Assembly (NCBI GenBank): GCA_964481345.1 | Contig: CAYZTC010000001.1 | Coordinates: 142,188 to 206,187 of the forward strand | Length of the DNA stretch: 64,000 nt | Reading direction: 5' to 3' | DNA from: an uncultured Candidatus Saccharibacteria bacterium | GTDB lineage: Bacteria > Patescibacteriota > Dojkabacteria > SC72 > JAFGCJ01 | Shown here: one piece after another, positions 25,285 to 43,044 of the stretch | Numbering within the stretch: the stretch's first letter is position 1 | Layout: each line of letters starts with the position of its first letter | Made by a program: the position numbers and the translations under genes | Notes under the pieces: generated by a model | The model's input: the letters and a program-made list of their open reading frames with translations, nothing else | Told to the model about the DNA's origin: nothing | The model's database searches: none

Positions 25285-25725
25285 ATGTCCATAGAACTAT
25301 TTCAACAGTATTGCAAACAAAATAAAATAGAGGTTGATGTTCTTAATGAGGGGTCTACAACTCATACAGCGAGGGACTCGGCGAAAACTCACGGTATTGA
25401 CTTGAACAGGATTGTTAAATCATTATTGATCAAAATTGGAGGTGAGTTTTGTGTTTTTCTTGTGCCAGGTAACAAAAGGTTAGACTTTAAATATCTTGAG
25501 GAACGTTTTGGTACGGAGGATATTAGAATGGCAACTGCAGACGAGGTGAAGGAGATGACCGGTTATTCTATCGGAGGTGTTCCACCTTTTGGGCATAAGA
25601 AAAAGTTGAAAACGCATATTGAAGATGGTTTTCCAGCCAGTAAGCAACTGTTAGCAGCAGCTGGAAGAGAAGATTCTGTGTTTTGGGTAGGTTTGGATAA
25701 GTTGAAAGAGATTGCCGCTGGCTAG
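25285..25725 (+). CDS. YbaK/ProX-type aminoacyl-tRNA deacylase (start may be 25249)
   Basis: MSIELFQQYC...GYSIGGVPPFGHKKK matches YbaK deacylase domain. Confidence 0.7.
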   Translation: MSIELFQQYCKQNKIEVDVLNEGSTTHTARDSAKTHGIDLNRIVKSLLIKIGGEFCVFLVPGNKRLDFKYLEERFGTEDIRMATADEVKEMTGYSIGGVPPFGHKKKLKTHIEDGFPASKQLLAAAGREDSVFWVGLDKLKEIAAG

Positions 25726-25760
25726 ACTCATAGTGTGTTTTCGTGAGATAATTCCATACG
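25721..25760. repeat. Repeat element A copy 1 (gctggctagactcatagtgtgttttcgtgagataattcc), promoter-like (TAGACT-N18-GATAAT) 25 bp upstream of gene
   Basis: Identical 40-mer recurs at 27022-27060, a degenerate third copy ~27905-27945. Confidence 0.7.
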
Positions 25761-26917: not shown

Positions 26918-27021
26918 ATAAGAAAAGAAGAAAAGGTCAGTGAGATTTTTTGGGTTTTGTCCCCATATAGGTTTTTTAGCCAAACCACGAATTCCTTTAT
27001 CCCACTGACCATTTTGTTATC
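26918..27021. repeat. Repeat element B copy 1 (~100 bp nested inverted-repeat element) directly fused to element A copy 2
   Basis: gaaaagaagaaaaggtcagtgag...cccactgaccattttgttatcgctggctag; outer arms ggtcagtgag/cccactgacc; second copy at 27805-27915. Confidence 0.7.
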
Positions 27022-27060
27022 GCTGGCTAGACTCATAGTGTGTTTTCGTGAGATAATTCC
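27022..27060. repeat. Repeat element A copy 2
   Basis: Exact 39/40 match to 25721-25760; 30 bp upstream of ORF 27092. Confidence 0.7.
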
Positions 27061-27804: not shown

Positions 27805-27915
27805 TAAGAAAAGAAGAAAAGGTCAGTGAGATTTTTGGGTTTGGTTCCCGTACGGGCTTGCTAACCAAACCACAAATCCCTTTATCCCACCGACCTTCTG
27901 TTATCGCTAGCTAGA
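27805..27915. repeat. Repeat element B copy 2 (inner palindrome cccgtacggg; inner arms gggtttggtt/aaccaaaccac)
   Basis: ~85% identical to 26918-27021 with indel in apical region. Confidence 0.7.
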
Positions 27916-30425: not shown

Positions 30426-31313
30426 ATGGTAACAGAAACACCTTCAAGTGCCCCTATCCCTAATCCACCAGCTCAGCAGCCTGCTCAACCAGCTCCACAG
30501 CAAGCTCAAGCTTCAAGTGAAGTTAAGGAGGTTCCAAAGCCAGCAGGAGAAAAGAAAAAGATGAAAGAAATTTACATTCTCGTTATTATGCTGGCAATTA
30601 TTGCGCTTGGACTTGTAGGGTATATCGTCTATTCTGAAATATTTTTAAGCGAAGAGCAGGAGGCTACTGAAGAAGAGGGAGAGGTGCCAGTGGAGGAAGA
30701 AGCGACGGACGTTGAAGTTGAGGATGTCGATGAGGGGGTGAGTGATACGGAAACATTTACAGGAGACTATCTTACAGCAGAAATTCCAGTTGGATGGGAT
30801 ATTATTGAGTACGAGGATGGTGATGGAACAGATATGGTCGCAAGTGGTGTCGATTTTGTGGGGTTGACTGCATTTGAGGTTTTAAACTATGGAGGTGAGA
30901 TAGTATTTAGAATGTATGCAGTATATGGCATCGGTGGTATTGATGCATGTGATGAGTATGTTCAGTTTGAGGATTTTAATGAGGATGATTATGACGATAT
31001 CGTTGAGTCATCGGCATTTGTTGATACCGTAACTGAGCTAGTTGACTACACAGATGTTGAATATACAGAGTTTACATTTCTTGGTTTAAGGGTTCGAAGG
31101 GTGGAAAAAGAGTTATTTTGGGATACGATTGAGGGAGAGACGTATTTTGAACCTGCATGTAACATATCTTATGCTGTATGGAATCTGGAAGGCCTTGTCT
31201 TTAGTGATGGTGATATGGATTCAAGTGCGTATATGTGGGAAGTGTCAGATACTGCTACAGAGGAGGAATTGCTGAAGCTTGATGAGATTCTGGATTCAAC
31301 GGACCCAGCGTAG
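30426..31313 (+). CDS. Membrane-anchored, highly acidic (D/E-rich) surface protein with PQ-rich N-terminus
   Basis: 295 aa; TM at ~50-70; long acidic low-complexity segments. Confidence 0.5.
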   Translation: MVTETPSSAPIPNPPAQQPAQPAPQQAQASSEVKEVPKPAGEKKKMKEIYILVIMLAIIALGLVGYIVYSEIFLSEEQEATEEEGEVPVEEEATDVEVEDVDEGVSDTETFTGDYLTAEIPVGWDIIEYEDGDGTDMVASGVDFVGLTAFEVLNYGGEIVFRMYAVYGIGGIDACDEYVQFEDFNEDDYDDIVESSAFVDTVTELVDYTDVEYTEFTFLGLRVRRVEKELFWDTIEGETYFEPACNISYAVWNLEGLVFSDGDMDSSAYMWEVSDTATEEELLKLDEILDSTDPA

Positions 31314-31324
31314 ATACAATTGAT

Positions 31325-32473
31325 CTATACAAAGAGCCTGAGAATACTTTGGGGTTTTGCATGTTTGTCGTATAAGTATTGTATTACTGCCTTGATAGGA
31401 AAGTATTCCAGATGAAGAATTGGAAGAAGATCCTCGAGTAAATCTGAGTTTGCCTCGTTATCGATATAAGTAACCTTTGGTTTTGGTAAGGCATGTAACC
31501 GTCTATTATCTAGTAATATATAGAACAGTGATGACTTTATATTGTCACCGTTCTCGTCTTTCTGGATATATGTGTATAATTCTTTTGGCTTAATCTTGCT
31601 TAGCTGAGACATTATCGAAACCGCATCTTTGGACACTAACGTTTTGTTTTTAAGTACCCCTAGCGCTTGTTCCGGATCGTTCACTGATTTTTCAATTGCC
31701 GTATAAGGTAAGATATATTTTTCGATTTCATATAGGTTATTTAAGGTAGCATTGGAATATTCTTGGACCATGGGATATCTTTCATCTTTTATGCAAAATC
31801 TTAATCCTGGAGATCCACTAAGAATTAAATGTTTGTCTCCGTCGCTGTGTCCCAAGGAAATAACTCTTTCAAACTGACCTTTTTCAATTAAACGTAAAAC
31901 CCCCCATCCCTTTTCTTTATCTCCTATTGTCAACCCTGGTCTCTCTATGGAGTTATTTTCATCGAATTTTACCTTGCTTGCTAGGACATTTATGTAATTC
32001 AAGCAGTTTCTATGTAGTGACATATTGATCAAATCATATATTCCACTACTAACCAGGACAGAAAAGATATTTGAGTTTTTAAGATATCGGTTTGAAATTT
32101 GTATGAAATCATTTGAAAGTGGTACCTGATCAGCAGCGTAAGACATCATTAGCAAGTACTGCATATTATTTGTCCCGAGATAGTTATCCCAGAGCATAAT
32201 AGTACTTTCAAGTGAAGAGTCTGGGACTTTGGGGTGATCTCTTCCAGTAATTGTTGAAACACCGTTAGATAATGTGCGCGAAAGGTGCCCCTGGGTAATA
32301 CACTCGTCCACATCGCTAACAAATAATGTATCTTGGTGAGGTTTTTTGTTTGATAATATTTGGTCTATCTCTGCATCTAAAAGTTGAGGATTTTCTTGGA
32401 TAATGATATCAATGATCTCTGGGGTAATGTTTGGCTTTTGAGTTTGTGGATCATTTTCTGACAAGTCTTTCAT
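31325..32473 (-). CDS. Hypothetical protein
   Basis: 382 aa ORF; no confident motif. Confidence 0.5.
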   Translation of the reverse strand: MKDLSENDPQTQKPNITPEIIDIIIQENPQLLDAEIDQILSNKKPHQDTLFVSDVDECITQGHLSRTLSNGVSTITGRDHPKVPDSSLESTIMLWDNYLGTNNMQYLLMMSYAADQVPLSNDFIQISNRYLKNSNIFSVLVSSGIYDLINMSLHRNCLNYINVLASKVKFDENNSIERPGLTIGDKEKGWGVLRLIEKGQFERVISLGHSDGDKHLILSGSPGLRFCIKDERYPMVQEYSNATLNNLYEIEKYILPYTAIEKSVNDPEQALGVLKNKTLVSKDAVSIMSQLSKIKPKELYTYIQKDENGDNIKSSLFYILLDNRRLHALPKPKVTYIDNEANSDLLEDLLPILHLEYFPIKAVIQYLYDKHAKPQSILRLFV

Positions 32474-32558
32474 TATGGAGAATGATACTATAGGGCTGGG
32501 ATAAGTTCAAGCTGGAATATTGGTTTGTTCTGTTCCAGAAGACTTTAGTGGAAAAGTA

Positions 32559-32616
32559 GTACAGGCAGCAAAAAAGGGCAATTCCAACAGATGTTCATGT
32601 TGTGAACCGCCCTTTT
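32559..32616. terminator. Cassette terminator T_A: bidirectional hairpin (aaaaagggc...gccctttttc) with A- and T-runs on both sides
   Basis: Stem aaaaagggc / gccctttttc enclosing caattccaacagatgttcatgttgtgaacc; paralogous to hairpins at 37647-37694 and 38445-38496. Confidence 0.6.
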
Positions 32617-32634
32617 TCTCTTTTGCTCATTTCT

Positions 32635-33144
32635 TTACTCGTCTAACCAACGTTGAACAACTTTCCTTGTCTCTAAAACAAGTGCTTCAACGTTTTGTCC
32701 ATCAAGGACCTTCAATACCGTGATGCTTACGGAAAGTTTCGTAGAAACTTTCCAATGTTCAGTCGTGAAAACATAGTATCTCGGATTGTCGTCATGTATG
32801 ATAATTTTTGAAAACATGATTGGCTTTCCAATATACTCTAACGTTGGGTCGTTGTCCGAGAGACGTGGGTCACTATATCTGTGTCGGGGTTGTATAGGTA
32901 TTTCAGTTAACCCATGCGATAAACCTGCTTCGCGAATACCTTTGTCTTCAACCACATATATTCTGTCGACCATCCTCGTTCCGTTAATGAGTTCCCTCAC
33001 GGTTGGAATTCGTAAGAGCCAGTCAATCTGTAAGGTCTCAACAGAAATTGTCGAAACCTTCTTGTAGTAATGTTCATCTCCCAGAGCTAGTAAGCCCAAG
33101 AACACGAAATCATCTACATAACCTAACCATTTTTTCTTTCTCAT
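32635..33144 (-). CDS. Cassette ORF A, hypothetical protein (~169 aa; true start ATG at 33142-33144 with SD GGAGG, not the GTG at 33231)
   Basis: ORF track 32635-33231; upstream 29 codons lie in the conserved non-coding leader (equivalent region in copy C carries a stop). Confidence 0.5.
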   Translation of the reverse strand: MRKKKWLGYVDDFVFLGLLALGDEHYYKKVSTISVETLQIDWLLRIPTVRELINGTRMVDRIYVVEDKGIREAGLSHGLTEIPIQPRHRYSDPRLSDNDPTLEYIGKPIMFSKIIIHDDNPRYYVFTTEHWKVSTKLSVSITVLKVLDGQNVEALVLETRKVVQRWLDE

Positions 33145-33149
33145 CGGAA

Positions 33150-33344
33150 CCTCCGATATGAGTGTTATCCTTGGATTTTCCACGTCACCGACGGGAAGGA
33201 GTAACACTACCTTCCTATGTTCCAAAAACACAAAAAGGTAATGTCACTTACAAGGATTTTTGTATAAGAGCAAAAGAGAAATTGATGTAATTGGGGCAGC
33301 CATCAATCTGGGGTGATTGTACTATGGGATGGATATTTATTCAA
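33150..33344 (-). promoter_or_regulatory. Cassette leader L_A: promoter TTGAAT-N17-TACAAT (-35 at 33339-33344, -10 at 33316-33321) plus conserved ~165-nt structured 5' leader
   Basis: ~85% identical to 38984-39191 and (first ~70 nt) 38190-38258; begins with palindrome ATTGATGG-N12-CATCAAT. Confidence 0.6.
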
Positions 33345-33579
33345 TATGTAAGATGCGTATCTTTTTATCTCTCTTCCAACTTTTTATCTGAGCTTCCCTT
33401 TTAAGAGCCTCTGACCTAGTATTGAATTTTTCTGTATAAACAAGTTTGAATGGGAGTTTTGAAGCAACGTATTTGGATCCTTTCTTTTGCTTGTGTTCGG
33501 ATAGTCTTCTTTTAAGATTTGTTGTAATACCGGTGTAAAGGGAGTTATCGTTGCATTTTAGTATATAAAGTGTGTACAT
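33337..33579 (-). CDS. GIY-YIG nuclease family protein (stand-alone, UPF0213/YhbQ-like)
   Basis: 80 aa MYTLYILKCNDNSLYTGITTNLKRRLSEHK... classic GIY-YIG core. Confidence 0.75.
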   Translation of the reverse strand: MYTLYILKCNDNSLYTGITTNLKRRLSEHKQKKGSKYVASKLPFKLVYTEKFNTRSEALKREAQIKSWKRDKKIRILHIE

Positions 33580-33773
33580 ACTGTGATTATAGAATCAGAG
33601 GGTGTGAACACAAGGGTTTCTGGTTTTCCTTCCTTTGGCCCTTCGACCAGACTCATCGCAGGTGAGTTCAGTATAGAAAAAATCAACACCGATATAACGG
33701 TATTTTAGAATAATTGTTGAAAAGCTGATTCAAAATGTGAAATAATGGTTGGTAATCTCATCAACCATTTTAG

Positions 33774-35114
33774 ATGTCTAAATATGATGTAATTGTTGTT
33801 GGTGCGGGACCTGCTGGAATATTTTCCTGTATTGAACTTATCAAGTTATCCTCCAAGAAGAATATTCTCCTTTTGGAGCTTGGGGATGGGATAGAAAAGA
33901 GGAAAGAATCTGACGTTATGACAGGTTTTGGTGGGGCTGGCACATTTTCTGATGGTAAGCTTCACTACACTCCCAAACTCTCTCATGAAAGAGCTCTGCA
34001 TCTGTTAGATATTGAAAAATATCAGGAAATACTGGATCAGGTTGATAAGACATTTAAGAAGTTTGGAGTTGAGGCGAAGTATTATCCTAAAAACGTTAAA
34101 GAGGTAGAAGCTCTTGTAGAAGATGCAATTCTTCATGACATCGATCTTGTAGTCAGGAAAACTCAGCATGTGGGTACAGACAAATTAATGCCGGTAATGA
34201 AGAAGATGCAGAAGTATTTAGAGACGTCAGGAGTCAAACTGAAGACCCATGTCAATGTGAAAGATATTATTAGAAATAGAGGGAAAGCCATTGGTGTAAA
34301 AGATAGCAATGGGAAAGAATATTTCTCAGAAAAAGTATTACTTTGTCCAGGCAGATATGGAGCAAAGTGGCTACAAAAGCTTGGAGATAAGCAAGGAATA
34401 GAATATAGGTATGAGAAGGTAGAAGTTGGTGTAAGAGTAGAGTTTCCAGCAGTAGTGATGAAAAAGTATGCTGATGCTCTATATGAAGTTGTGTTTCAGA
34501 TGCGAACACCTACATTTGATGATTTAGTAAGAACCTTCTGTTCCTGTCCGAATGGGTATGTGTCTGTGGAGAACTATGGAGGATATATATGTGTGAACGG
34601 ATGCTCGAATTCTGACCATAAGTCGAAGAATTCAAACTTTGCCCTTCTTTGTAAAGTTGGCTTGACGGAGCCAGTGGAAAACACGATTGAATATGCAAAA
34701 TCTATTGCGGAAGTTGCATCTACAATTGGTGGTGGAAAACCAATTATTCAAAGACTTGCAGATCTTCGAGCTGGAAGAAGAAGTACCTGGTCAAGTATTC
34801 TCAAATCTCTGGTATCTCCAAGTTTAAGGGAAGTTACTCCCGGTGATATTACAATGGCACTTCCGTATCGTATAGTTACTGGAATTATTGAGGGTCTAGA
34901 AAGGCTTGATGAGGTAATGCCTGGTTTAAATTCTGGATCTACCCTACTCTATGCACCAGAGGTTAAGCTTCGATCATCTAAAGTGAAGGTCACTTCAGAT
35001 ATGCAAACTACAGTAAGAAATCTCTTCGTTGCAGGTGATGCGTCTGGTGTGTCTGGATCAGTCACTGGTGCTGCTGTTACCGGAATTATGGCAGCAAGAG
35101 GTATTTCAAAATAA
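33774..35114 (+). CDS. FAD-dependent dehydrogenase (COG2509-like, Rossmann GxGxxG N-terminus)
   Basis: 446 aa; MSKYDVIVVGAGPAGIFSCIEL dinucleotide-binding motif; C-terminal GDASG. Confidence 0.7.
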   Translation: MSKYDVIVVGAGPAGIFSCIELIKLSSKKNILLLELGDGIEKRKESDVMTGFGGAGTFSDGKLHYTPKLSHERALHLLDIEKYQEILDQVDKTFKKFGVEAKYYPKNVKEVEALVEDAILHDIDLVVRKTQHVGTDKLMPVMKKMQKYLETSGVKLKTHVNVKDIIRNRGKAIGVKDSNGKEYFSEKVLLCPGRYGAKWLQKLGDKQGIEYRYEKVEVGVRVEFPAVVMKKYADALYEVVFQMRTPTFDDLVRTFCSCPNGYVSVENYGGYICVNGCSNSDHKSKNSNFALLCKVGLTEPVENTIEYAKSIAEVASTIGGGKPIIQRLADLRAGRRSTWSSILKSLVSPSLREVTPGDITMALPYRIVTGIIEGLERLDEVMPGLNSGSTLLYAPEVKLRSSKVKVTSDMQTTVRNLFVAGDASGVSGSVTGAAVTGIMAARGISK

Positions 35115-35130
35115 TTTATTTATTAATAAA

Positions 35131-36303
35131 ATGAGAACTGTGGGTACTATTGTGCGTGGCATTCGAACTCCTATTATTAGACATGGTGATGATTTGGAGC
35201 AAATAGTCATGGATTCGATAGAAAGGGCTGCTAAAAATGAAAATTTTAAGTTAAATGATAGGGATGTTATAGGTATTACAGAAGCGGTTGTAAGCATTAC
35301 ACAGGGTAATTTTGTTACGCTAGACCAATTGTCAAAAGAGTTTAAAAAGGTCTTTCCTTCAAAAGTAGGGGTAGTGTTTCCGATATTAAGCAGGAATAGA
35401 TTTTCACTCATACTTAAGGCTCTGGCAGATGTGTCGAAAGAGGTTCATGTATTATTAAGTTATCCTTCTGATGAAGTTGGTAATCAGCTAGTTAACTCGG
35501 AAGTTATGGATGCAAAAGGAGTGGACCCCTTCAAGGATTCGTTTGAAGAGCGTGAGTTTAGGGAAATATTTGGAGATAAGTTGGCTCATCGGTTTACAGG
35601 TGTAGACTATATTGAGGCGTATAAAAAGTTGGGAGATGGAAATGTAACGATACATTTTTCAAATGATCCGACATCAATACTTAAGTATACGAAAAATGTG
35701 CTCGTTTCAGATATTCACACAAGGTTTAAAACGAAAAAGATTATAAAAAAGGCGGGAGGTAAGCTAATTATTGGCTTGGATGAGATCTGTAATAAGAAAA
35801 TTAGGAAGCATGGATATAACATTGAGTATGGTTTGCTAGGATCGAATAAGGTTGCAGAGGATAGATTGAAACTTTTTCCTAGAGATTGTGATATTTTTGT
35901 TGATAAAATAAAAGATAGAATTAAGAAACGGTATAAGAAAGAGGTAGAGGTTTTAGTTTATGGTGATGGTGCATTCAAAGATCCTGTTGGAAAAATCTGG
36001 GAGCTTGCAGATCCAGTGGTGTGCCCAGGGTTCACCGAGAAACTTATTGGAACGCCCAAGGAGTTGAAATTAAAGTACATTTCTGAGAACTGGGACTCAC
36101 AGGGTGATCTTGGTGATTATGTGAAGAGTATGATTAGAATGAAAAATACTAAGGATTATGATGTAGAAAAATCTTTAGGTACTACACCAAGACAGCTAAC
36201 AGATCTGCTCGGAAGCTTATGTGATTTAACAAGTGGAAGTGGGGATAAGGGAACGCCCGTTGTGTTGGTACAAGGGTACTTTGATGACTACACTGTAGAG
36301 TAG
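35131..36303 (+). CDS. CofE-like (F420-0:gamma-glutamyl ligase family) protein; start taken at MRTVG (ORF track starts 35029)
   Basis: N-terminus MRTVGTIVRGIRTPIIRHGDDLEQIV resembles CofE/FbiB N-terminal pattern; weak, motif-based only. Confidence 0.4.
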   Translation: MRTVGTIVRGIRTPIIRHGDDLEQIVMDSIERAAKNENFKLNDRDVIGITEAVVSITQGNFVTLDQLSKEFKKVFPSKVGVVFPILSRNRFSLILKALADVSKEVHVLLSYPSDEVGNQLVNSEVMDAKGVDPFKDSFEEREFREIFGDKLAHRFTGVDYIEAYKKLGDGNVTIHFSNDPTSILKYTKNVLVSDIHTRFKTKKIIKKAGGKLIIGLDEICNKKIRKHGYNIEYGLLGSNKVAEDRLKLFPRDCDIFVDKIKDRIKKRYKKEVEVLVYGDGAFKDPVGKIWELADPVVCPGFTEKLIGTPKELKLKYISENWDSQGDLGDYVKSMIRMKNTKDYDVEKSLGTTPRQLTDLLGSLCDLTSGSGDKGTPVVLVQGYFDDYTVE

Positions 36304-36342
36304 TAGGTGGAGTTGAAGTGCTTGTACTGAGCTTGCCGAAGT

Positions 36343-36375
36343 GAAGAGAGGCAATGGGACTGGTTAGAACTTTGA
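36343..36375. repeat. Partial copy of conserved terminator-flank motif (gaggcaatgggacNggttNgaact)
   Basis: Matches 37603-37631 and 38408-38436; similar to tmRNA 3' end (gagacggtgggaattgaac). Confidence 0.45.
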
Positions 36376-36382
36376 GACTGTC

Positions 36383-37456
36383 CTATTTATTATCTGAAGT
36401 GGTGTCAAAAAGTAGTCGATTAAATAGTACTGTTACGAAAGAGGCATTAAAAAATATTCCCAACATAGCGGCAAATTGATACAAGATACTGTAGAAAGAC
36501 GGCAATTTATCTAGCTTTTCTATATTATTTCCAAGTGTTAGCATGGCTCCGGAAGTAACAAGTATAGACGCACACAAATCCTTTAACCCTGTGAAAAATA
36601 TCAAAGATAAAATTAATAATGCAATTAGATACATTCCGAGAACCCTGAAGGGTTTTTGTCCATATCCTGTTAGGCAATTGAAAACCAAAACTCTGAATAA
36701 TTTCTCGCTAAAATTATTTATGTTATATTTGGTGAAGTTATTGTTCTCTTCTATTAGGTATTGTCTGGCTTTATCTGTTACCTCTCCTGCTAGATACGAT
36801 TTCTTCAAACCCTTATAAAATAAGTATCTTTCTTTGTTTTCGGTGCCATCTCCATATCGACCTTCGAGCTTTATGTCTTTAAAAATAGTGTTTGCGTTAA
36901 AAGTACAGTTATTGAAAGAATGAGGATAGAATGAGCAATTTTCGAAAACTACATTGAAAAAATATGATTTTGTGAATTGACTAAATTGAGTGAAATCGCA
37001 ATTGATAAATTTTACGTTTCTAAACGTTGAGTAACTTGAATTGAAGAAATGAAAGTCACATTTTTTAAAGGTGGTTTGAGCAGTGTAAATATTGTCTGCC
37101 GAACAAGAGAGAAATGTGGCGCCATTAAACGTCGAAAATTCAAATTTGGCATAGTCGAATCTTATACCTTTGAAATTATCATCTTCGGGGAAATCGAGAT
37201 GTTCTCTTAACAAATATATCCCCTTTAAATCTCTTGGGGAGTCGAGTATGGGGAGATTTCCTTGGGCGTATTCGTTCGAGAGAAAGTTCTCCCCTGCACC
37301 TCCTTTAATCAGTTTGAAAATTCTCTTTTTTTGCTTTATGTTTTCTGCAGCATGCCAACGAGTTTGCCATCTTATGACGTCAGCCTCTTCATCTTTTTTT
37401 CTGGGTACTATTATTGTCACGGTCAGATAATAACAGAAGCAATACCCTATTGTCAT
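36383..37456 (-). CDS. Pentapeptide-repeat protein with C-terminal 2-TM pore-like (ion-channel-like) membrane domain
   Basis: 357 aa; long run of A(D/N)LxF/C-type pentapeptide repeats (FSTFNGATFLSCSADNIYT...NCTFNANTIF) then hydrophobic helices with TLGNN loop. Confidence 0.6.
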   Translation of the reverse strand: MTIGYCFCYYLTVTIIVPRKKDEEADVIRWQTRWHAAENIKQKKRIFKLIKGGAGENFLSNEYAQGNLPILDSPRDLKGIYLLREHLDFPEDDNFKGIRFDYAKFEFSTFNGATFLSCSADNIYTAQTTFKKCDFHFFNSSYSTFRNVKFINCDFTQFSQFTKSYFFNVVFENCSFYPHSFNNCTFNANTIFKDIKLEGRYGDGTENKERYLFYKGLKKSYLAGEVTDKARQYLIEENNNFTKYNINNFSEKLFRVLVFNCLTGYGQKPFRVLGMYLIALLILSLIFFTGLKDLCASILVTSGAMLTLGNNIEKLDKLPSFYSILYQFAAMLGIFFNASFVTVLFNRLLFDTTSDNK

Positions 37457-37602
37457 AATTATGATTTATATCAGAAGAGAAAATTCTTCAATTTTATATT
37501 TGAACGAAATTTGGAGTATGACAAAAACAAGGGATATCGAACCCATGAATATTCTGTTCCAATAAGACTTTTCGATGAAATAGATAACACAGACTCTCAT
37601 CT

Positions 37603-37631
37603 GGTAGAGGCAATGGGACGGGTTGGAACTT
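37603..37631. repeat. Conserved terminator-flank motif copy (gaggcaatgggacgggttggaacttgagg)
   Basis: Direct repeat of 38408-38436 and 36343-36375. Confidence 0.5.
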
Positions 37632-37646
37632 GAGGTTTAGGCAACA

Positions 37647-37694
37647 AAAAAGCGGCTTGTTCGTTTTTACGGAACTCGCCGCGATTTTGCTTTT
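37647..37694. terminator. Cassette terminator T_B (aaaaagcggc...gccgcgatttt hairpin, bidirectional)
   Basis: Hairpin immediately 3' of ORF B stop (37696); flanked by A-run and T-run. Confidence 0.55.
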
Positions 37695-37695
37695 G

Positions 37696-38070
37696 CTAAA
37701 TAATTTTGAGTCGAATATCTGTTACTGGATATCCGTAATATTCTCCTCTTATTTTTTCTCGGAACACAAAAGGTTGAATGTGTACTGGGGTCAGGAGTAT
37801 TTTTCTATTAGGGGAATGTTCAAAACAGACAATTCTCACAAAGGTGTCATCAGAAAGGAATCTTCTTATTGGTTTGTAGTATGTCCATTTACCGTTACGA
37901 TTCATGTGTCTGAAGGATACTACATTATCCAATCGTTCTAATCCTCTGTAGATTTCTACCAAAGACCCCTTCTTTAGTAAGAATTCGTTTTGTCCTTTTC
38001 TATGTTGACGACGGGCTATTTTTTTAGCTCGAGGTCTTAATAAGTAAGTCCACAACTCTTTAATATTCAT
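37696..38070 (-). CDS. Cassette ORF B, small basic hypothetical protein (~124 aa; start ATG 38068-38070 with SD GGAGAA)
   Basis: ORF track gives 37696-38220 but N-terminal 50 codons overlap conserved leader; internal Met MNIKELW has SD. Confidence 0.45.
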   Translation of the reverse strand: MNIKELWTYLLRPRAKKIARRQHRKGQNEFLLKKGSLVEIYRGLERLDNVVSFRHMNRNGKWTYYKPIRRFLSDDTFVRIVCFEHSPNRKILLTPVHIQPFVFREKIRGEYYGYPVTDIRLKII

Positions 38071-38258
38071 TTTGCTTCTCCGTTTATTTTCTTTTTCAAA
38101 AGATGATAAGTTCAGTTCCCCCGTTCTATCCACGAGGTGTGAACAGGATGGGAGAACCAAATAAATGAGAATATTGTATAAGAGCAAAAGCAAAATTGAT
38201 GTAATCGGGGTAGCCATCAATGTAGATGGATTGTACTATGGGATAATAGAAATATCAA
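38071..38258 (-). promoter_or_regulatory. Cassette leader L_B: promoter TTGATA-N17-TACAAT (-35 38253-38258, -10 38230-38235) plus leader sharing first ~70 nt with L_A/L_C
   Basis: Sequence alignment of three copies; palindrome ATTGATGG-N12-CATCAAT retained. Confidence 0.55.
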
Positions 38259-38260
38259 GT

Positions 38261-38293
38261 TGGCAATATTGTTTGTGTTGTTGTATTGCCAAT
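38261..38293. other. Perfect 9-bp inverted repeat TTGGCAATA-N15-TATTGCCAA just upstream of the L_B -35 box
   Basis: ttggcaatattgtttgtgttgttgtattgccaa. Confidence 0.4.
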
Positions 38294-38407
38294 ATGGAGC
38301 ATAGTAGATAAAGTCGGAAATTATTTCAGAATCAACAATTCCCCTATCCTACTAGTGTAAACTGATGTTTGTTGAAGTATGGAGTGTAGATAAGTGAAAA
38401 ATGAGGA

Positions 38408-38436
38408 GAGACAACGGGACAGGTTGGAACTTGGAG
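38408..38436. repeat. Conserved terminator-flank motif copy (gagacaacgggacaggttggaacttggag)
   Basis: Direct repeat, see 37603-37631. Confidence 0.5.
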
Positions 38437-38444
38437 TACAGCCA

Positions 38445-38496
38445 GCAAAAAAGGGGGTCATAACAGATGTTCATGTCATGAACACCCCTTTTTTCT
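38445..38496. terminator. Cassette terminator T_C (aaaaagggggt...acccctttttt hairpin enclosing palindrome gttcatgtcatgaac)
   Basis: Strong GC stem with flanking A6 and T6 runs; 5 bp from ORF C stop. Confidence 0.6.
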
Positions 38497-38500
38497 TTTG

Positions 38501-38983
38501 CTACTTATTTTTCAGTACAATAACATTGTACCGTGGAATGATATTCAAAATACCCGTCTCTTCTTGGTAAGTTGTTTGGACATAGATATATCTAACAACC
38601 TTACGGAAGTGAAATTGGGGTAAATTTTGGATTGGCTCCCCGTGTACAATAATTCTTTTCCGAATAATTGGGAATTTCTTAAGGAGACCACTCAAAATAT
38701 TGCTCACTGCTCGTTGTTCTTTTTGAGCTGGTATCTTCAGTATATCCCATTCCTCCTTCGGATTTGTACTTTCTCTAACGGAATATATATTTTCCGTAGT
38801 GAAGATGCCAGTATCTGCATTGTATTCATCAACAAGGGTTCTATTGAACCATTCCTGATTCATGATACCAACCGTTATTGATTCTCCTTTTTGTAAAAAA
38901 ACTAGAGCACCTCTTCGTATCTTCAGAATCCTCCTTAATTCGGAGAACTCTTTTAACAATCCGGAAAGCTTTTGTTTATTCAT
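38501..38983 (-). CDS. Cassette ORF C, hypothetical protein (160 aa)
   Basis: ATG with SD GGGAGG 5 nt upstream; sits between L_C and T_C. Confidence 0.5.
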   Translation of the reverse strand: MNKQKLSGLLKEFSELRRILKIRRGALVFLQKGESITVGIMNQEWFNRTLVDEYNADTGIFTTENIYSVRESTNPKEEWDILKIPAQKEQRAVSNILSGLLKKFPIIRKRIIVHGEPIQNLPQFHFRKVVRYIYVQTTYQEETGILNIIPRYNVIVLKNK

Positions 38984-39191
38984 GGAAACCTCCCGTCTCC
39001 CTTTCTAAGTGTTATCCTTTGATTTTCCACATCACGTGGAAGGAGTAACACTACCTTTATATGTTCCTAGGAACACATGAAGGTAATGTCACACATCAAG
39101 GATATTTGTATAAGAGCAAAAGAGAATATTGATGGAATTGGGACAGCCATCAATCTGGGTGGATTATACTATGGGGTGATAGAAATGTCAA
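38984..39191 (-). promoter_or_regulatory. Cassette leader L_C: consensus sigma70 promoter TTGACA-N17-TATAAT (-35 39186-39191, -10 39163-39168) and ~170-nt conserved structured leader, 36 bp downstream of tmRNA 3' end
   Basis: Perfect consensus hexamers with 17-bp spacer; leader begins with perfect palindrome ATTGATGG-N11-CCATCAAT. Confidence 0.65.
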
Positions 39192-39227
39192 TGTAGTGAA
39201 GTCGGGATTATGCTGTTATATAAGCAC

Positions 39228-39638
39228 TGGTGGAGACGGTGGGAATTGAACCCACGTCCAAAAGAATCGTCAAATGCAATGATACAAGCTTAGTCAGTTT
39301 GACTAATCAAGGATTTAAAAACTGACAAAATAATCCCTGAAGAGGTGATTTTAAAAATTCTCAGGTTGGGCTCACCTGGTTACCCTTCCTGTATATCCCG
39401 AAAATGAACGAGCTTTAGATACCTCATCGGGAAGAAGTGACCCAAGCTCACAGTGGAATTACCCTACTGACATGTTCATGTTGAGACCAGCAAAAGCTGA
39501 GTTAACACCTGCTGCAAATTTCTTTGCTGCTAGTTGAACACGGTTTTTAAGTGAATCTGCACTTATTTTTTGTTTTTAAGAGCGATTACTCTGCTTGGTG
39601 CATAGGACTTTAGCTTTTGTCGAAGCCTTGTCGTCCCC
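39228..39638 (-). ncRNA. ssrA: tmRNA (ssrA), one-piece, ~411 nt
   Basis: 5' GGGGACGACAAGGCTTCGAC... pairs with 3' ...GGGTTCAATTCCCACCGTCTCCACCA (tRNA-Ala-like acceptor with G3:U70, T-arm, encoded CCA); TATAAT boxes just upstream at 39651-39666. Confidence 0.8.
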
Positions 39639-39731
39639 AAGTAAAAAAGCATTATACCACATTATAGGATATAGAAATTTTGTGTTATTCTGTCGACAAT
39701 GAAATTGAAAAATGCTAACCTAGTGGGAGCT

Positions 39732-42699: not shown

Positions 42700-43044
42700 A
42701 TGAAAAAAATTGATAAGAATAATCAAAATATTGTAAATAGTGAAACCTGTGGTGAGCTATTGGAAGTATTGAATTTGAAGGGTGTACCAGTAAGTGTAAC
42801 TCAAGCTGTAAACCTCAGACCTACAAAACCTCATTATCATAAAGTTGGTACAGAAATATTTTGGGTAAGAAAAGGTGAGATTACAGTGAAGGTAGATGAA
42901 AGTGAACCAGTAAAAATTTGCTCAGGTGAAGTCCTCGTAATTTCTCCTAACGAGGTTCATGAAGTTGTTGAGACATCGGATGATAATGAGGTTATTGTGA
43001 TTAATAATCCCCGTTGGGAAAAGGGGGATGAATATCAAAGTTGA
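42700..43044 (+). CDS. Cupin-2 domain protein
   Basis: 114 aa; HYHKVGTEIFWV...EVHEV metal-binding cupin motifs. Confidence 0.65.
   Translation: MKKIDKNNQNIVNSETCGELLEVLNLKGVPVSVTQAVNLRPTKPHYHKVGTEIFWVRKGEITVKVDESEPVKICSGEVLVISPNEVHEVVETSDDNEVIVINNPRWEKGDEYQS

What the first reader, a model, noticed from the sequence alone, without database searches (positions are those of the whole stretch)
38984..39191. Conserved leader begins with palindrome ATTGATGG-N11-CCATCAAT directly after a consensus promoter
The three cassette leaders are L_C 38984-39191, L_A 33150-33344 and L_B 38071-38258. In all three the transcript would start ~7 nt after the -10 box and immediately contains an 8-bp perfect (C) or 7/8 (A, B) inverted repeat. 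The repeat is followed by a U-rich tract (UUCUCUUUUGCUCUU). This looks like an operator for a shared repressor overlapping +1 to +35, or an attenuator or RNA-level switch. Further downstream, A and C share potential long-range pairings (GGAAGG/CCUUCC and GUGUUAYUCC/GGAUAACAC). These pairings could sequester or expose the SD, a riboswitch- or thermosensor-like architecture.
Basis: seen in the sequence. Interest (0 to 1): 0.65.

Follow-up and report, generated by a model that had tools for sequence, protein, structure and literature searches.

The report
Duplicated promoter–leader module heading ORFan genes
Three unrelated orphan genes next to the tmRNA gene of an uncultivated Patescibacteria (CPR) bacterium carry copies of one promoter plus structured leader, a known kind of promoter reuse, and whether its palindrome works as DNA or as RNA is still open.

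Summary
On the minus strand, three copies (C 39191-38984, B 38258-38071, A 33344-33150) share a sigma-70-type promoter. C has the only 12/12 consensus promoter in the window. Each promoter is followed 1-2 nt after the inferred start by ATTGATGG-N11-CCATCAAT (perfect in C, 7/8 in A and B) and by an invariant 17-mer, CTTTTGCTCTTATACAA.

Only about 86 nt are common to all three copies. A and C also share the rest of the leader. B diverges there but has a different long hairpin at the same place.

The palindrome arms and the 17-mer are far less variable than the segments between them (1/33 against 11/24 positions). The long hairpin P3 keeps its pairing through six A/C substitutions via G·U pairs, so it is an RNA-level structure.

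The downstream ORFs are mutually unrelated. A and C have no homologues in 5.8 and 1.8 billion proteins; B could not be searched that deeply.

Cassette A is missing at the same site in two relatives, and a third relative has other genes after tmRNA. I found no copy of the leader in Rfam, GTDB genomes, metagenomes, IMG/VR, phages or plasmids.

Best reading: a propagated, recombining promoter plus 5'-UTR module ("mobile promoter", PeSL-like). Operator against RNA hairpin is unresolved. Riboswitch, attenuator and SD-sequestration readings are not supported.

The parts
39163..39191 (-). Copy C promoter, TTGACA-17-TATAAT
   Evidence: It is the only 12/12 match in the window.
39128..39154 (-). Copy C palindrome / hairpin P1: ATTGATGG, CTGTCCCAATT, CCATCAAT. 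It begins 1-2 nt after the inferred start site.
   Evidence: The RNA hairpin is -7.5 kcal/mol and stable in the ensemble.
39106..39122 (-). Copy C invariant pyrimidine-rich 17-mer, CTTTTGCTCTTATACAA. It marks the end of the core shared by all three copies.
39014..39103 (-). Copy C three-way junction: outer helix P2 (39095-39103 with 39014-23), long hairpin P3 (39045-39092), short hairpin P4 (39025-39041)
38989..38994 (-). Copy C Shine-Dalgarno GGGAGG, 5 nt before the ATG at 38983
38501..38983 (-). ORF C, 160 aa, ORFan
   Evidence: Reading frame 0 is the best by codon score.
38407..38493 (-). Cassette C 3' flank: a terminator like that of A (38447-38493) overlapping a D2 element like that of B (38407-38456)
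38230..38258 (-). Copy B promoter, TTGATA-17-TACAAT. A B-specific inverted repeat (38260-38292) lies just upstream.
38195..38221 (-). Copy B palindrome / P1 (7/8)
38174..38190 (-). Copy B 17-mer
38111..38160 (-). Copy B long hairpin. Its sequence is unrelated to P3 of A and C, but its position and size are the same.
37696..38070 (-). ORF B, 124 aa, no family match. SD GGAG at 38075-38081.
33316..33344 (-). Copy A promoter, TTGAAT-17-TACAAT. Its -35 overlaps the last codon and stop codon of the GIY-YIG gene.
33281..33307 (-). Copy A palindrome / P1 (7/8)
33260..33276 (-). Copy A 17-mer
33167..33257 (-). Copy A three-way junction, with P3 at 33201-33247
32635..33144 (-). ORF A, 169 aa, ORFan. 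SD GGAGG at 33150-33154.
32571..32617 (-). Cassette A terminator, shared with cassette C
39228..39638 (-). tmRNA gene (ssrA), 36 nt upstream of the copy C -35

Best explanation
The flagged region is one of three copies of a duplicated, recombining promoter-plus-5'-leader module. This is a 'putative mobile promoter' family. It supplies expression signals to three unrelated ORFan genes in the flexible region beside ssrA of a Patescibacteria genome.

Proposed mechanism:
1. A sigma-70-type promoter fires about 7 nt after the -10.
2. The transcript begins almost at once with the 8-bp hairpin P1.
3. An invariant single-stranded pyrimidine-rich 17-mer follows.
4. Next comes a three-way junction dominated by a hairpin of about 22 bp, P3.
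5. A strong Shine-Dalgarno sequence and the ORF follow.

Shown in silico:
- The promoters, the palindrome and the 17-mer exist, and constraint is concentrated on the arms and the 17-mer.
- Pairing in P3 is maintained on the sense strand.
- Copy C is a mosaic of the other two copies.
- The ORFs are orphans.
- Cassette A is absent at the same site in two relatives.

Inferred:
- The start site.
- That the module gives common, strong and probably post-transcriptionally tuned expression.
- That homologous recombination between copies shuffles cassettes.

For the palindrome itself I slightly favour an RNA role. It would be a 5'-terminal stem-loop that shields the mRNA from 5'-end-dependent decay or serves as a protein-binding handle. 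My reasons are that it starts 1-2 nt from the inferred 5' end and that the rest of the leader is demonstrably an RNA structure. A DNA operator is a nearly equal rival.
For: - Promoters. Copy C is the only 12/12 consensus in 64 kb.
- Three copies only, all within 6 kb.
- Pairwise blocks: A-C 174 nt at 85.6%, A-B 71 nt at 87%, B-C 86 nt at 84%. Shared 3' flanks also exist.
- ORFs are not alignable to each other. A and C have only self-hits in 5.8e9 and 1.8e9 proteins.
- Variation is non-uniform: 1/33 variable positions in the arms plus 17-mer, against 11/24 in the discriminator, loop and linker (p = 1e-4).
- Leaders fold far better than shuffles (z = -4.6, -5.5, -3.9).
- P3 carries six A/C substitutions with no loss of pairs (P = 0.004 uniform, 0.058 transition-biased). 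The sense strand folds much better than the antisense (A: -26.0 against -8.5 kcal/mol).
- B has a non-homologous hairpin at the same place.
- Mosaic copy C: it resembles B upstream of the -10 (3 against 10 differences) and A downstream (6 against 11; p = 0.03). It has an A-like terminator plus a B-like D2 element.
- Cassette A is absent in relatives L097 and L098. Relative L099 has other genes after tmRNA.
- The ORFs have lower codon-usage scores than host genes.
- A second duplicated promoter pair in the same window shows that promoter reuse recurs in this genome.
Against: - There is no transcript data, so the start site and promoter activity are inferred.
- Only three copies exist, two of them nearly identical, so there is no covariation in P1 and little statistical power.
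- The 11-13-nt loop is large for a pure stabiliser hairpin.
- The arms are sequence-invariant, and the single change breaks a pair rather than compensating. This fits sequence-specific protein recognition at least as well.
- The segment partition used in the constraint test was partly post hoc.
- A and C show a weak collinear global similarity (z = 4.0, 0 of 500 shuffles). They may be very diverged paralogues rather than unrelated genes.
- No recombination intermediate or population polymorphism was seen. All six assemblies are essentially identical: five at 100%, and L013 differs by 3 mismatches and lacks about 200 nt inside the F420-ligase gene.
Confidence: 0.5

Rival explanations
1. DNA operator. 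The 8-N11-8 dyad at +2 to +28 is bound by a dimeric repressor encoded elsewhere in the genome. This would keep three strong promoters of foreign or orphan genes silent until a common signal arrives.
For: - The DNA palindrome is perfect in the strongest promoter copy.
- The arms are sequence-invariant with no covariation, and the only change is at the innermost position.
- The dyad overlaps the inferred start site, a classical repressor position (established knowledge, for example lacO1).
- The spacer varies more than the arms (3/11 against 1/16).
Against: - No HTH or other regulator gene lies within about 10 kb either side (Pfam list of L012).
- No further sites exist in 84 kb, and isolated half-sites occur at the chance rate.
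- The half-site centres are 19 bp apart, which is not an integral number of helical turns.
- This reading does not explain the invariant non-palindromic 17-mer or the RNA-level conservation of P3.
Confidence: 0.3
2. PeSL-like recombination linker. The main role of the conserved ~86-bp core, and of the shared 3' elements, is to provide homology for excision, insertion and shuffling of ORFan cassettes. The regulatory signals come along as passengers.
For: - Flanks are mosaic.
- Unrelated ORFs sit between shared 5' and 3' flanks.
- Cassette A is an indel relative to two relatives, with the break about 15 nt upstream of the -35.
- The ORFan association and the ~100-bp promoter plus stem-loop format match the PeSLs described in PMC2839356.
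Against: - The indel in L097 is not a clean leader-to-leader deletion. A cupin remnant fills the gap.
- No polymorphism among the six assemblies affects the leaders or cassettes.
- No phage genes or recombinase are nearby.
- Purifying constraint is focused on the arms and the 17-mer rather than spread uniformly, which points to a function beyond mere homology.
Confidence: 0.15
3. Attenuator or riboswitch. P1 plus the U-tract terminates transcription early unless a ligand or protein intervenes, or alternative pairings such as GUGUUA/UAACAC gate the SD.
For: - The hairpin is followed directly by a U-rich run.
- Alternative complementarities exist.
- The U-rich element is more complementary to the cassettes' own RBS regions than to most RBSs in the window. 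Ranks are 0/52 for B, 3/52 for C and 8/52 for A.
Against: - P1 is weak (-5.5 to -7.5 kcal/mol), has an 11-13-nt loop and is not flagged as a terminator. The genome's real terminators have G+C-rich stems.
- Rfam gives no match even at E <= 10.
- In A and C the ensemble strongly favours P2/P3/P4, and in C the SD is largely unpaired.
- The RBS complementarity is not copy-specific. C's element pairs best with B's RBS.
- No homologues are available for covariation analysis.
Confidence: 0.07
4. Neutral relic. The similarity only reflects recent segmental duplication, and the palindrome and 17-mer have no function of their own.
For: - There are only three copies, all within 6 kb.
- The element is absent from every other genome searched.
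Against: - Variation is strongly non-uniform.
- Similarity starts at the promoter and stops abruptly at the end of the 17-mer (B) or at the SD (A and C). The adjoining ORFs are unalignable.
- A perfect consensus promoter and a perfect 8-bp dyad are each improbable by chance.
Confidence: 0.1
5. Translated leader. Either the GTG-started extension of ORF A, or a short peptide from the AUG inside the 5' arm, is translated. In A and B that peptide reads MA.PITSI.LLLLY, and the 17-mer then encodes Leu-Leu-Leu-Leu-Tyr.
For: - The frame is open in A from 33231.
- A and B share the peptide reading (read directly from the sequences).
Against: - Copy C carries a 1-nt insertion before the 17-mer that shifts this frame. 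A and C differ by several indels that are not multiples of three.
- There is no SD, because the AUG lies about 6 nt from the inferred 5' end.
- Strong SDs sit at the proper distance before the annotated ATGs.
Confidence: 0.02

Closest known systems
Putative mobile promoters (PMPs; Matus-Garcia, Nijveen & van Passel 2012, PMC3488235)
   Same: Homologous upstream sequences of at least 50 nt at 80% identity or more lie in front of non-homologous CDSs within one genome. Families are small and often recent. The three leaders meet the operational definition.
   Different: This family carries a long structured 5' UTR, a dyad at the start site and shared 3' flanks. The PMP definition says nothing about any of these. 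The host is an uncultivated CPR bacterium.
PeSLs, promoter-early stem-loop cassettes of T4-type phages (Arbiol et al. 2010, PMC2839356; PMC4122927)
   Same: These are conserved modules of about 100 bp that combine a strong sigma-70-like promoter with a stem-loop. They sit preferentially upstream of ORFans in hypervariable regions and are proposed to mediate modular shuffling. One PeSL subclass places the stem-loop just downstream of the -10.
   Different: - PeSLs are phage elements. No phage genes are found here.
- PeSL stem-loops are G+C-rich and are demonstrated terminators. P1 is A+U-rich with a large loop and is not terminator-like.
- There are dozens of PeSL copies per phage against three here.
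- No minicircles or recombinants have been observed for this element.
5'-terminal stabiliser stem-loops of bacterial mRNAs (for example ompA in E. coli, aprE and ermC leaders in B. subtilis; from established knowledge, not tested here)
   Same: A hairpin lies within a few nucleotides of the 5' end of a long leader, ahead of a strong SD.
   Different: Stabiliser function is unproven here. The loop is unusually large and partly conserved. The decay machinery of this organism was not examined.
Repressor operators overlapping +1 (for example lacO1 and phage early operators; from established knowledge)
   Same: A perfect dyad lies immediately downstream of the -10 of a strong promoter and is repeated at several promoters.
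   Different: No cognate regulator was identified. The dyad has an 11-bp spacer. No additional sites exist elsewhere in 84 kb.
Integron gene-cassette arrays
   Same: Short single-ORF cassettes of unrelated orphan genes lie in a row with repeated boundary sequences.
   Different: There is no IntI integrase and no attC-type sites. Each cassette has its own promoter, whereas integron cassettes are generally promoterless.

Membership tests
Putative mobile promoter (PMP) family | Upstream regions align over at least 50 nt at 80% identity or more | tested here: met
   A-C 174 nt at 85.6%, A-B 71 nt at 87.3%, B-C 86 nt at 83.7%. In B the shared core lies at -104 to -188 from the ATG, only partly inside the -50 to -150 window used in PMC3488235.
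Putative mobile promoter (PMP) family | Downstream CDSs do not align | tested here: met
   BLASTP E >= 0.09 for all pairs, and no nucleotide blocks inside the ORFs. Caveat: the A-C global alignment gives z = 4.0.
Putative mobile promoter (PMP) family | Upstream neighbours are not homologous | tested here: met
   The upstream neighbours are tmRNA (C), the 3' flank of cassette C (B) and the GIY-YIG gene (A).
PeSL (promoter-early stem-loop) | Strong sigma-70-like promoter plus an adjacent stem-loop in a conserved motif of about 100 bp | tested here: met
   This is in silico only.
PeSL (promoter-early stem-loop) | The stem-loop is an effective transcription terminator | tested here: not met
   P1 is -5.5 to -7.5 kcal/mol with an 11-13-nt loop and 3 G-C pairs. 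The terminator scan did not flag it. No functional assay was possible.
PeSL (promoter-early stem-loop) | Resides in hyperplastic regions of a T4-type phage genome | tested here: not met
   The chromosomal context includes rpoB/C, rpoD, tmRNA and pilN. No phage genes are present and there are no phage matches.
PeSL (promoter-early stem-loop) | Recombination between copies generates indels or minicircles | tested here: inconclusive
   Copies are mosaic and the cassette is an indel relative to two relatives. No polymorphism affects the leaders or cassettes among six assemblies. Circles cannot be tested here.
Riboswitch or other curated cis-regulatory RNA | Match to an Rfam covariance model | tested here: not met
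   Only tmRNA and tRNAs reach the gathering score. Nothing meaningful appears at E <= 10.
Riboswitch or other curated cis-regulatory RNA | Conserved aptamer with covariation across species | not testable with these tools
   No homologue was found in GTDB representatives, JGI metagenomes or IMG/VR by pattern search, nor in relatives' loci.
Intrinsic terminator / attenuator | G+C-rich stem, loop of 3-8 nt, followed by a U-tract | tested here: not met
   The U-tract is present, but the stem is A+U-rich and the loop is 11-13 nt.
Repressor operator / regulon | Dyad-symmetric site overlapping the promoter | tested here: met
Repressor operator / regulon | A cognate DNA-binding regulator, and further sites at other promoters | tested here: not met
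   No regulator domain is found among genes within about 10 kb either side. There are no further dyads in 84 kb, and half-sites occur at the chance rate.
Integron cassette array | IntI tyrosine recombinase and attC sites | tested here: not met
   No integrase appears in the gene lists. The repeated 3' element D2 has no hairpin symmetry.
Type III toxin-antitoxin (ToxIN-like) | Tandem array of short RNA repeats upstream of the toxin gene | tested here: not met
   No tandem repeats lie in 32400-39700, and PADLOC gives no hit for the ORFs.

The most novel reading that the evidence does not exclude
The module could be a previously undescribed structured leader RNA class of CPR bacteria. It would consist of a 5' hairpin, an invariant 17-nt single strand and a three-way junction with an RNase-III-sized hairpin. 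It would subject newly acquired orphan genes to one post-transcriptional control. Its conserved core could also serve as the recombination linker of an integrase-free cassette-exchange hotspot beside ssrA, a cellular counterpart of phage PeSLs.
Probability: 0.12. Interest if true: 0.65.

Novelty: new member of a known kind. Interest (0 to 1): 0.33.

Why it matters
Gene regulation and gene gain in Patescibacteria/CPR are almost unexplored. If the reading is right, this locus shows orphan genes being expressed from a reusable promoter plus 5'-UTR module, in a variable region next to the tmRNA gene, with the copies exchanging segments. That gives a concrete and testable example of how reduced genomes wire in new genes.

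The element is compact enough for reporter tests. Arm-swap mutants would separate the DNA operator reading from the RNA hairpin reading.

It is limited to one lineage and three copies, so its general importance is modest unless more members are found.

Tried and rejected
1. Homologues of the leader elsewhere.
- Exact-pattern scans of GTDB genomes, JGI metagenomes and IMG/VR gave only chance hits, which I checked by context.
- blastn against phages and plasmids gave nothing.
- nhmmer and blastn against relatives' loci and against 20 kb of extra flank gave nothing.
- The source contigs themselves were not in the two large collections, so absence there is weaker evidence than it looks.

2. Function of the ORFs.
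- Pfam, PADLOC, PHROGs and NCBIfam gave no hits for A, B or C.
- PDB sequence search gave nothing significant.
- tblastn against phages and IMG/VR gave none.
- Single-sequence AlphaFold models were unusable, with pLDDT 37 and 42, so I ran no fold search.
- The one weak hit for ORF C (P0123) is a tandem-repeat artefact.

3. The 3' element D2 as decayed tmRNA att sites from tandem integrations. I rejected this because its similarity to the tmRNA 3' end is no better than shuffles.

4. Foreign base composition of the cassettes. G+C shows no anomaly.

5. A leucine-rich leader peptide encoded by the 17-mer. I rejected this because the frame is shifted in copy C and there is no SD.

6. Copy-specific co-variation between the U-rich element and the RBS. 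It is suggestive for B and C but not copy-specific.

7. An analogous repeated promoter module beside tmRNA in relative L099. None was found.

8. Strain variation to use as a natural mutagenesis screen. The six assemblies are identical across the leaders and cassettes. Five are 100% identical, and L013 has 3 mismatches and a ~200-nt gap inside the F420-ligase gene.

Full report
**What is in the sequence.**

All relevant features are on the minus strand. A tmRNA gene occupies 39638->39228. Thirty-six nucleotides downstream of it lies a perfect TTGACA-17-TATAAT promoter at 39191->39163. It is the only 12/12 match in the 64-kb window, where shuffles give 0.07.

Nine nucleotides after the -10 hexamer, which is 1-2 nt after the inferred start site, the palindrome ATTGATGG-CTGTCCCAATT-CCATCAAT begins (39154->39128). 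The start site is inferred from the promoter and has not been mapped. A U/C-rich stretch follows and contains CTTTTGCTCTTATACAA (39122->39106).

Two further copies exist. Copy B has its promoter at 38258->38230 and its dyad at 38221->38195. Copy A has its promoter at 33344->33316 and its dyad at 33307->33281. Each dyad has one mismatch, at the innermost position of the 3' arm.

There are no other copies in the window or in 20 kb of additional flank recovered from the source assemblies. Isolated half-sites occur at the chance rate.

**Extent of the repeat.**

- B and C share 86 nt, from the -35 to the last base of the 17-mer, at 84%.
- A and B share 71 nt at 87%.
- A and C share 174 nt at 85.6%, from just upstream of the -10 almost to the Shine-Dalgarno sequence.
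- A and C also share a 70-nt terminator region after the ORF.
- B and C share a different 50-nt 3' element, D2.

The three ORFs are C (160 aa), B (124 aa) and A (169 aa). Each has a good SD and reads best in frame 0, but all score below the host genes for codon usage.

They do not align to each other. A and C show only a weak collinear global similarity (z = 4.0). They match no Pfam, PADLOC, PHROG or NCBIfam family and no PDB sequence. ORF A finds only itself among 5.8 billion proteins. ORF C finds only itself among 1.8 billion representatives.

**Evidence for constraint.**

Among the three copies, variable positions are very unevenly spread. The 5' arm has 0/8, the 3' arm 1/8 and the 17-mer 0/17. 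Against this, the discriminator has 5/8, the loop 3/11 and the linker 3/5. That is 1/33 against 11/24 (Fisher p = 1e-4). The partition was partly chosen after seeing the data.

The leaders fold much better than shuffled controls (z = -4.6, -5.5, -3.9). The robust elements in the ensemble are P1 (-5.5 to -7.5 kcal/mol) and a long hairpin P3 of 21-23 bp. In A and C, P3 sits in a three-way junction with an outer helix P2 and a short hairpin P4.

P3 differs at six positions between A and C, yet loses no pair. There is one double compensatory change, and the other changes create U·G pairs. The chance of this is 0.004 under uniform substitution and 0.058 with transition bias.

Because of the G·U pairs, the sense strand folds far better than the antisense: -26.0 against -8.5 kcal/mol in A, and -26.1 against -17.9 in C. 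As plain DNA the arms are only 77-83% complementary. P3 is therefore an RNA-level, strand-specific structure.

Copy B has no sequence similarity beyond the 17-mer. It nevertheless carries a hairpin of the same size at the same distance (38160->38111).

**What the data do not support.**

- Rfam gives nothing, even at E <= 10.
- P1 plus the U-tract does not resemble the genome's real terminators, which have G+C-rich stems and U6 runs.
The SD is largely unpaired in C's ensemble. In A the start codon sits in a small local hairpin instead.
- The U-rich element is more complementary to the cassettes' RBS regions than to most RBSs in the window (ranks 0, 3 and 8 of 52). This is not copy-specific.
- Translation of the leader is not supported. 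The A-specific GTG frame and a possible peptide from the AUG inside the 5' arm are both broken in C by indels.

**Genomic and evolutionary context.**

The organism is a Patescibacteria/CPR bacterium. Its FAD-dependent protein is 61-67% identical to most listed homologues, several of them named as Patescibacteria, Amesbacteria among them. Neighbouring genes include DUF4012 and PilN.

The same locus occurs in six assemblies, identical across the leaders and cassettes.

- In a relative whose FAD protein is 86% identical (L097), homology to the window stops at 33359, 15 nt upstream of leader A's -35. It resumes at 31303. Leader A, ORF A and the 382-aa gene are therefore missing.
- In a second relative (82%, L098), the homologue of the 382-aa gene abuts the FAD gene with only 110 nt between them. 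The GIY-YIG gene and cassette A are absent.
- In a third relative (PilN 74% identical, on an 844-kb contig), tmRNA is followed directly by entirely different genes and no leader is present.

Copy C is a mosaic. Upstream of the -10 it resembles B (3 against 10 differences). Downstream it resembles A (6 against 11; p = 0.03). Its 3' flank joins an A-like terminator to a B-like D2 element.

No integrase, phage gene or regulator lies within about 10 kb. Base composition is unremarkable.

**Interpretation.**

The simplest account that fits everything is a duplicated and recombining promoter plus 5'-UTR module. It heads orphan genes in the flexible region beside ssrA.

It meets the operational definition of a putative mobile promoter family: at least 50 nt at 80% identity or more, upstream of non-homologous CDSs (PMC3488235). 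In format it resembles the PeSL cassettes of T4-type phages. Those are modules of about 100 bp with a strong promoter and a stem-loop, placed in front of ORFans in hypervariable regions and acting as recombination linkers (PMC2839356). It is not a PeSL in the strict sense. It is not in a phage, and its stem-loop is not terminator-like.

A second, unrelated pair of duplicated promoters with shared 3' flanks lies in the same window (25716-25755 and 27021-27060). Promoter reuse is therefore recurrent in this genome.

**The palindrome itself.**

Two readings remain close.

For an RNA 5'-terminal stem-loop:
- It starts 1-2 nt from the inferred 5' end.
- It is stable in the ensemble.
- The remainder of the leader is demonstrably selected as RNA.

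For a DNA operator:
- The dyad is perfect and Watson-Crick only.
- The arms are invariant in sequence and show no covariation.
- The one change breaks a pair.
- The site overlaps the start of a very strong promoter.

No regulator gene and no wider regulon could be found, but only 84 kb of the genome was visible. I put the RNA reading slightly ahead.

Overall probabilities: about 0.5 for the general module explanation, 0.3 for an operator as the main function of the dyad, and below 0.1 for an attenuator or riboswitch.

**Verdict.**

The feature is real and probably functional. It is new in sequence but belongs to a known kind, promoter/leader propagation. It is confined to one lineage with three copies.

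Interest is moderate to low (0.33). It would rise if more copies or covariation turned up, or if cassette shuffling beside ssrA could be shown.

Noticed in passing
window 36347-36396, 37606-37655, 38407-38456 (minus strand): A conserved element of about 50 nt, D2 (consensus CTCAAGTTCCAACCnGTCCCrTTGyCTCT), follows three consecutive genes: ORF D, ORF B and ORF C. In B and C it lies after the terminator. It has no hairpin symmetry and is not significantly similar to the tmRNA 3' end. Its function is unknown.
   Followed up: partly
window 32571-32617 and 38447-38493: Cassettes A and C share a terminator of the form AAAAGGG...CCCTTTTTT. It encloses an inner palindrome: TGTTCATG-A-CATGAACA in C, and an imperfect version in A.
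   Followed up: partly
window 25716-25755 and 27021-27060; also 26919-27010 and 27805-27895: This is a second duplicated promoter family. A 40-nt segment, 100% identical in both copies, contains TAGACT-18-(TG)GATAAT. It lies about 30 nt upstream of two non-homologous ORFs (333 aa and 229 aa), which also share a 3' flank of about 90 nt at 81-89%. Promoter and flank reuse therefore seems recurrent in this genome.
   Followed up: partly
window 38260-38292: A perfect 9-bp inverted repeat, TTGGCAATA-N15-TATTGCCAA, lies immediately upstream of the -35 of copy B only.
   Followed up: no
window 36383-37456 and 31325-32473 (minus strand): ORF D (357 aa) has pentapeptide repeats plus C-terminal membrane helices. 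It gives a weak match to the Hailong effector HalA, 31.6 bits against a cutoff of 250. The 382-aa ORF downstream of cassette A has a weak PADLOC '2TM effector' hit (E = 0.003). Both lie in the variable region and may be defence-related, but the evidence is thin.
   Followed up: no
window 33337-33579 (minus strand); L097 1610-1852: A stand-alone 80-aa GIY-YIG protein lies directly upstream of leader A. It is present in relative L097 and absent in relative L098, so it is itself a variable gene.
   Followed up: partly
L097 1431-1589 against window 42877-43035: In relative L097, the gap left by the missing cassette A contains a remnant similar (69%) to the cupin gene that lies about 10 kb away in the window. 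This indicates rearrangement in this region.
   Followed up: no
ORF A (32635-33144) against ORF C (38501-38983): There is a weak collinear global similarity (z = 4.0, 0 of 500 shuffles), although no local BLAST hit is significant. The two may be extremely diverged paralogues that have kept near-identical UTRs.
   Followed up: partly
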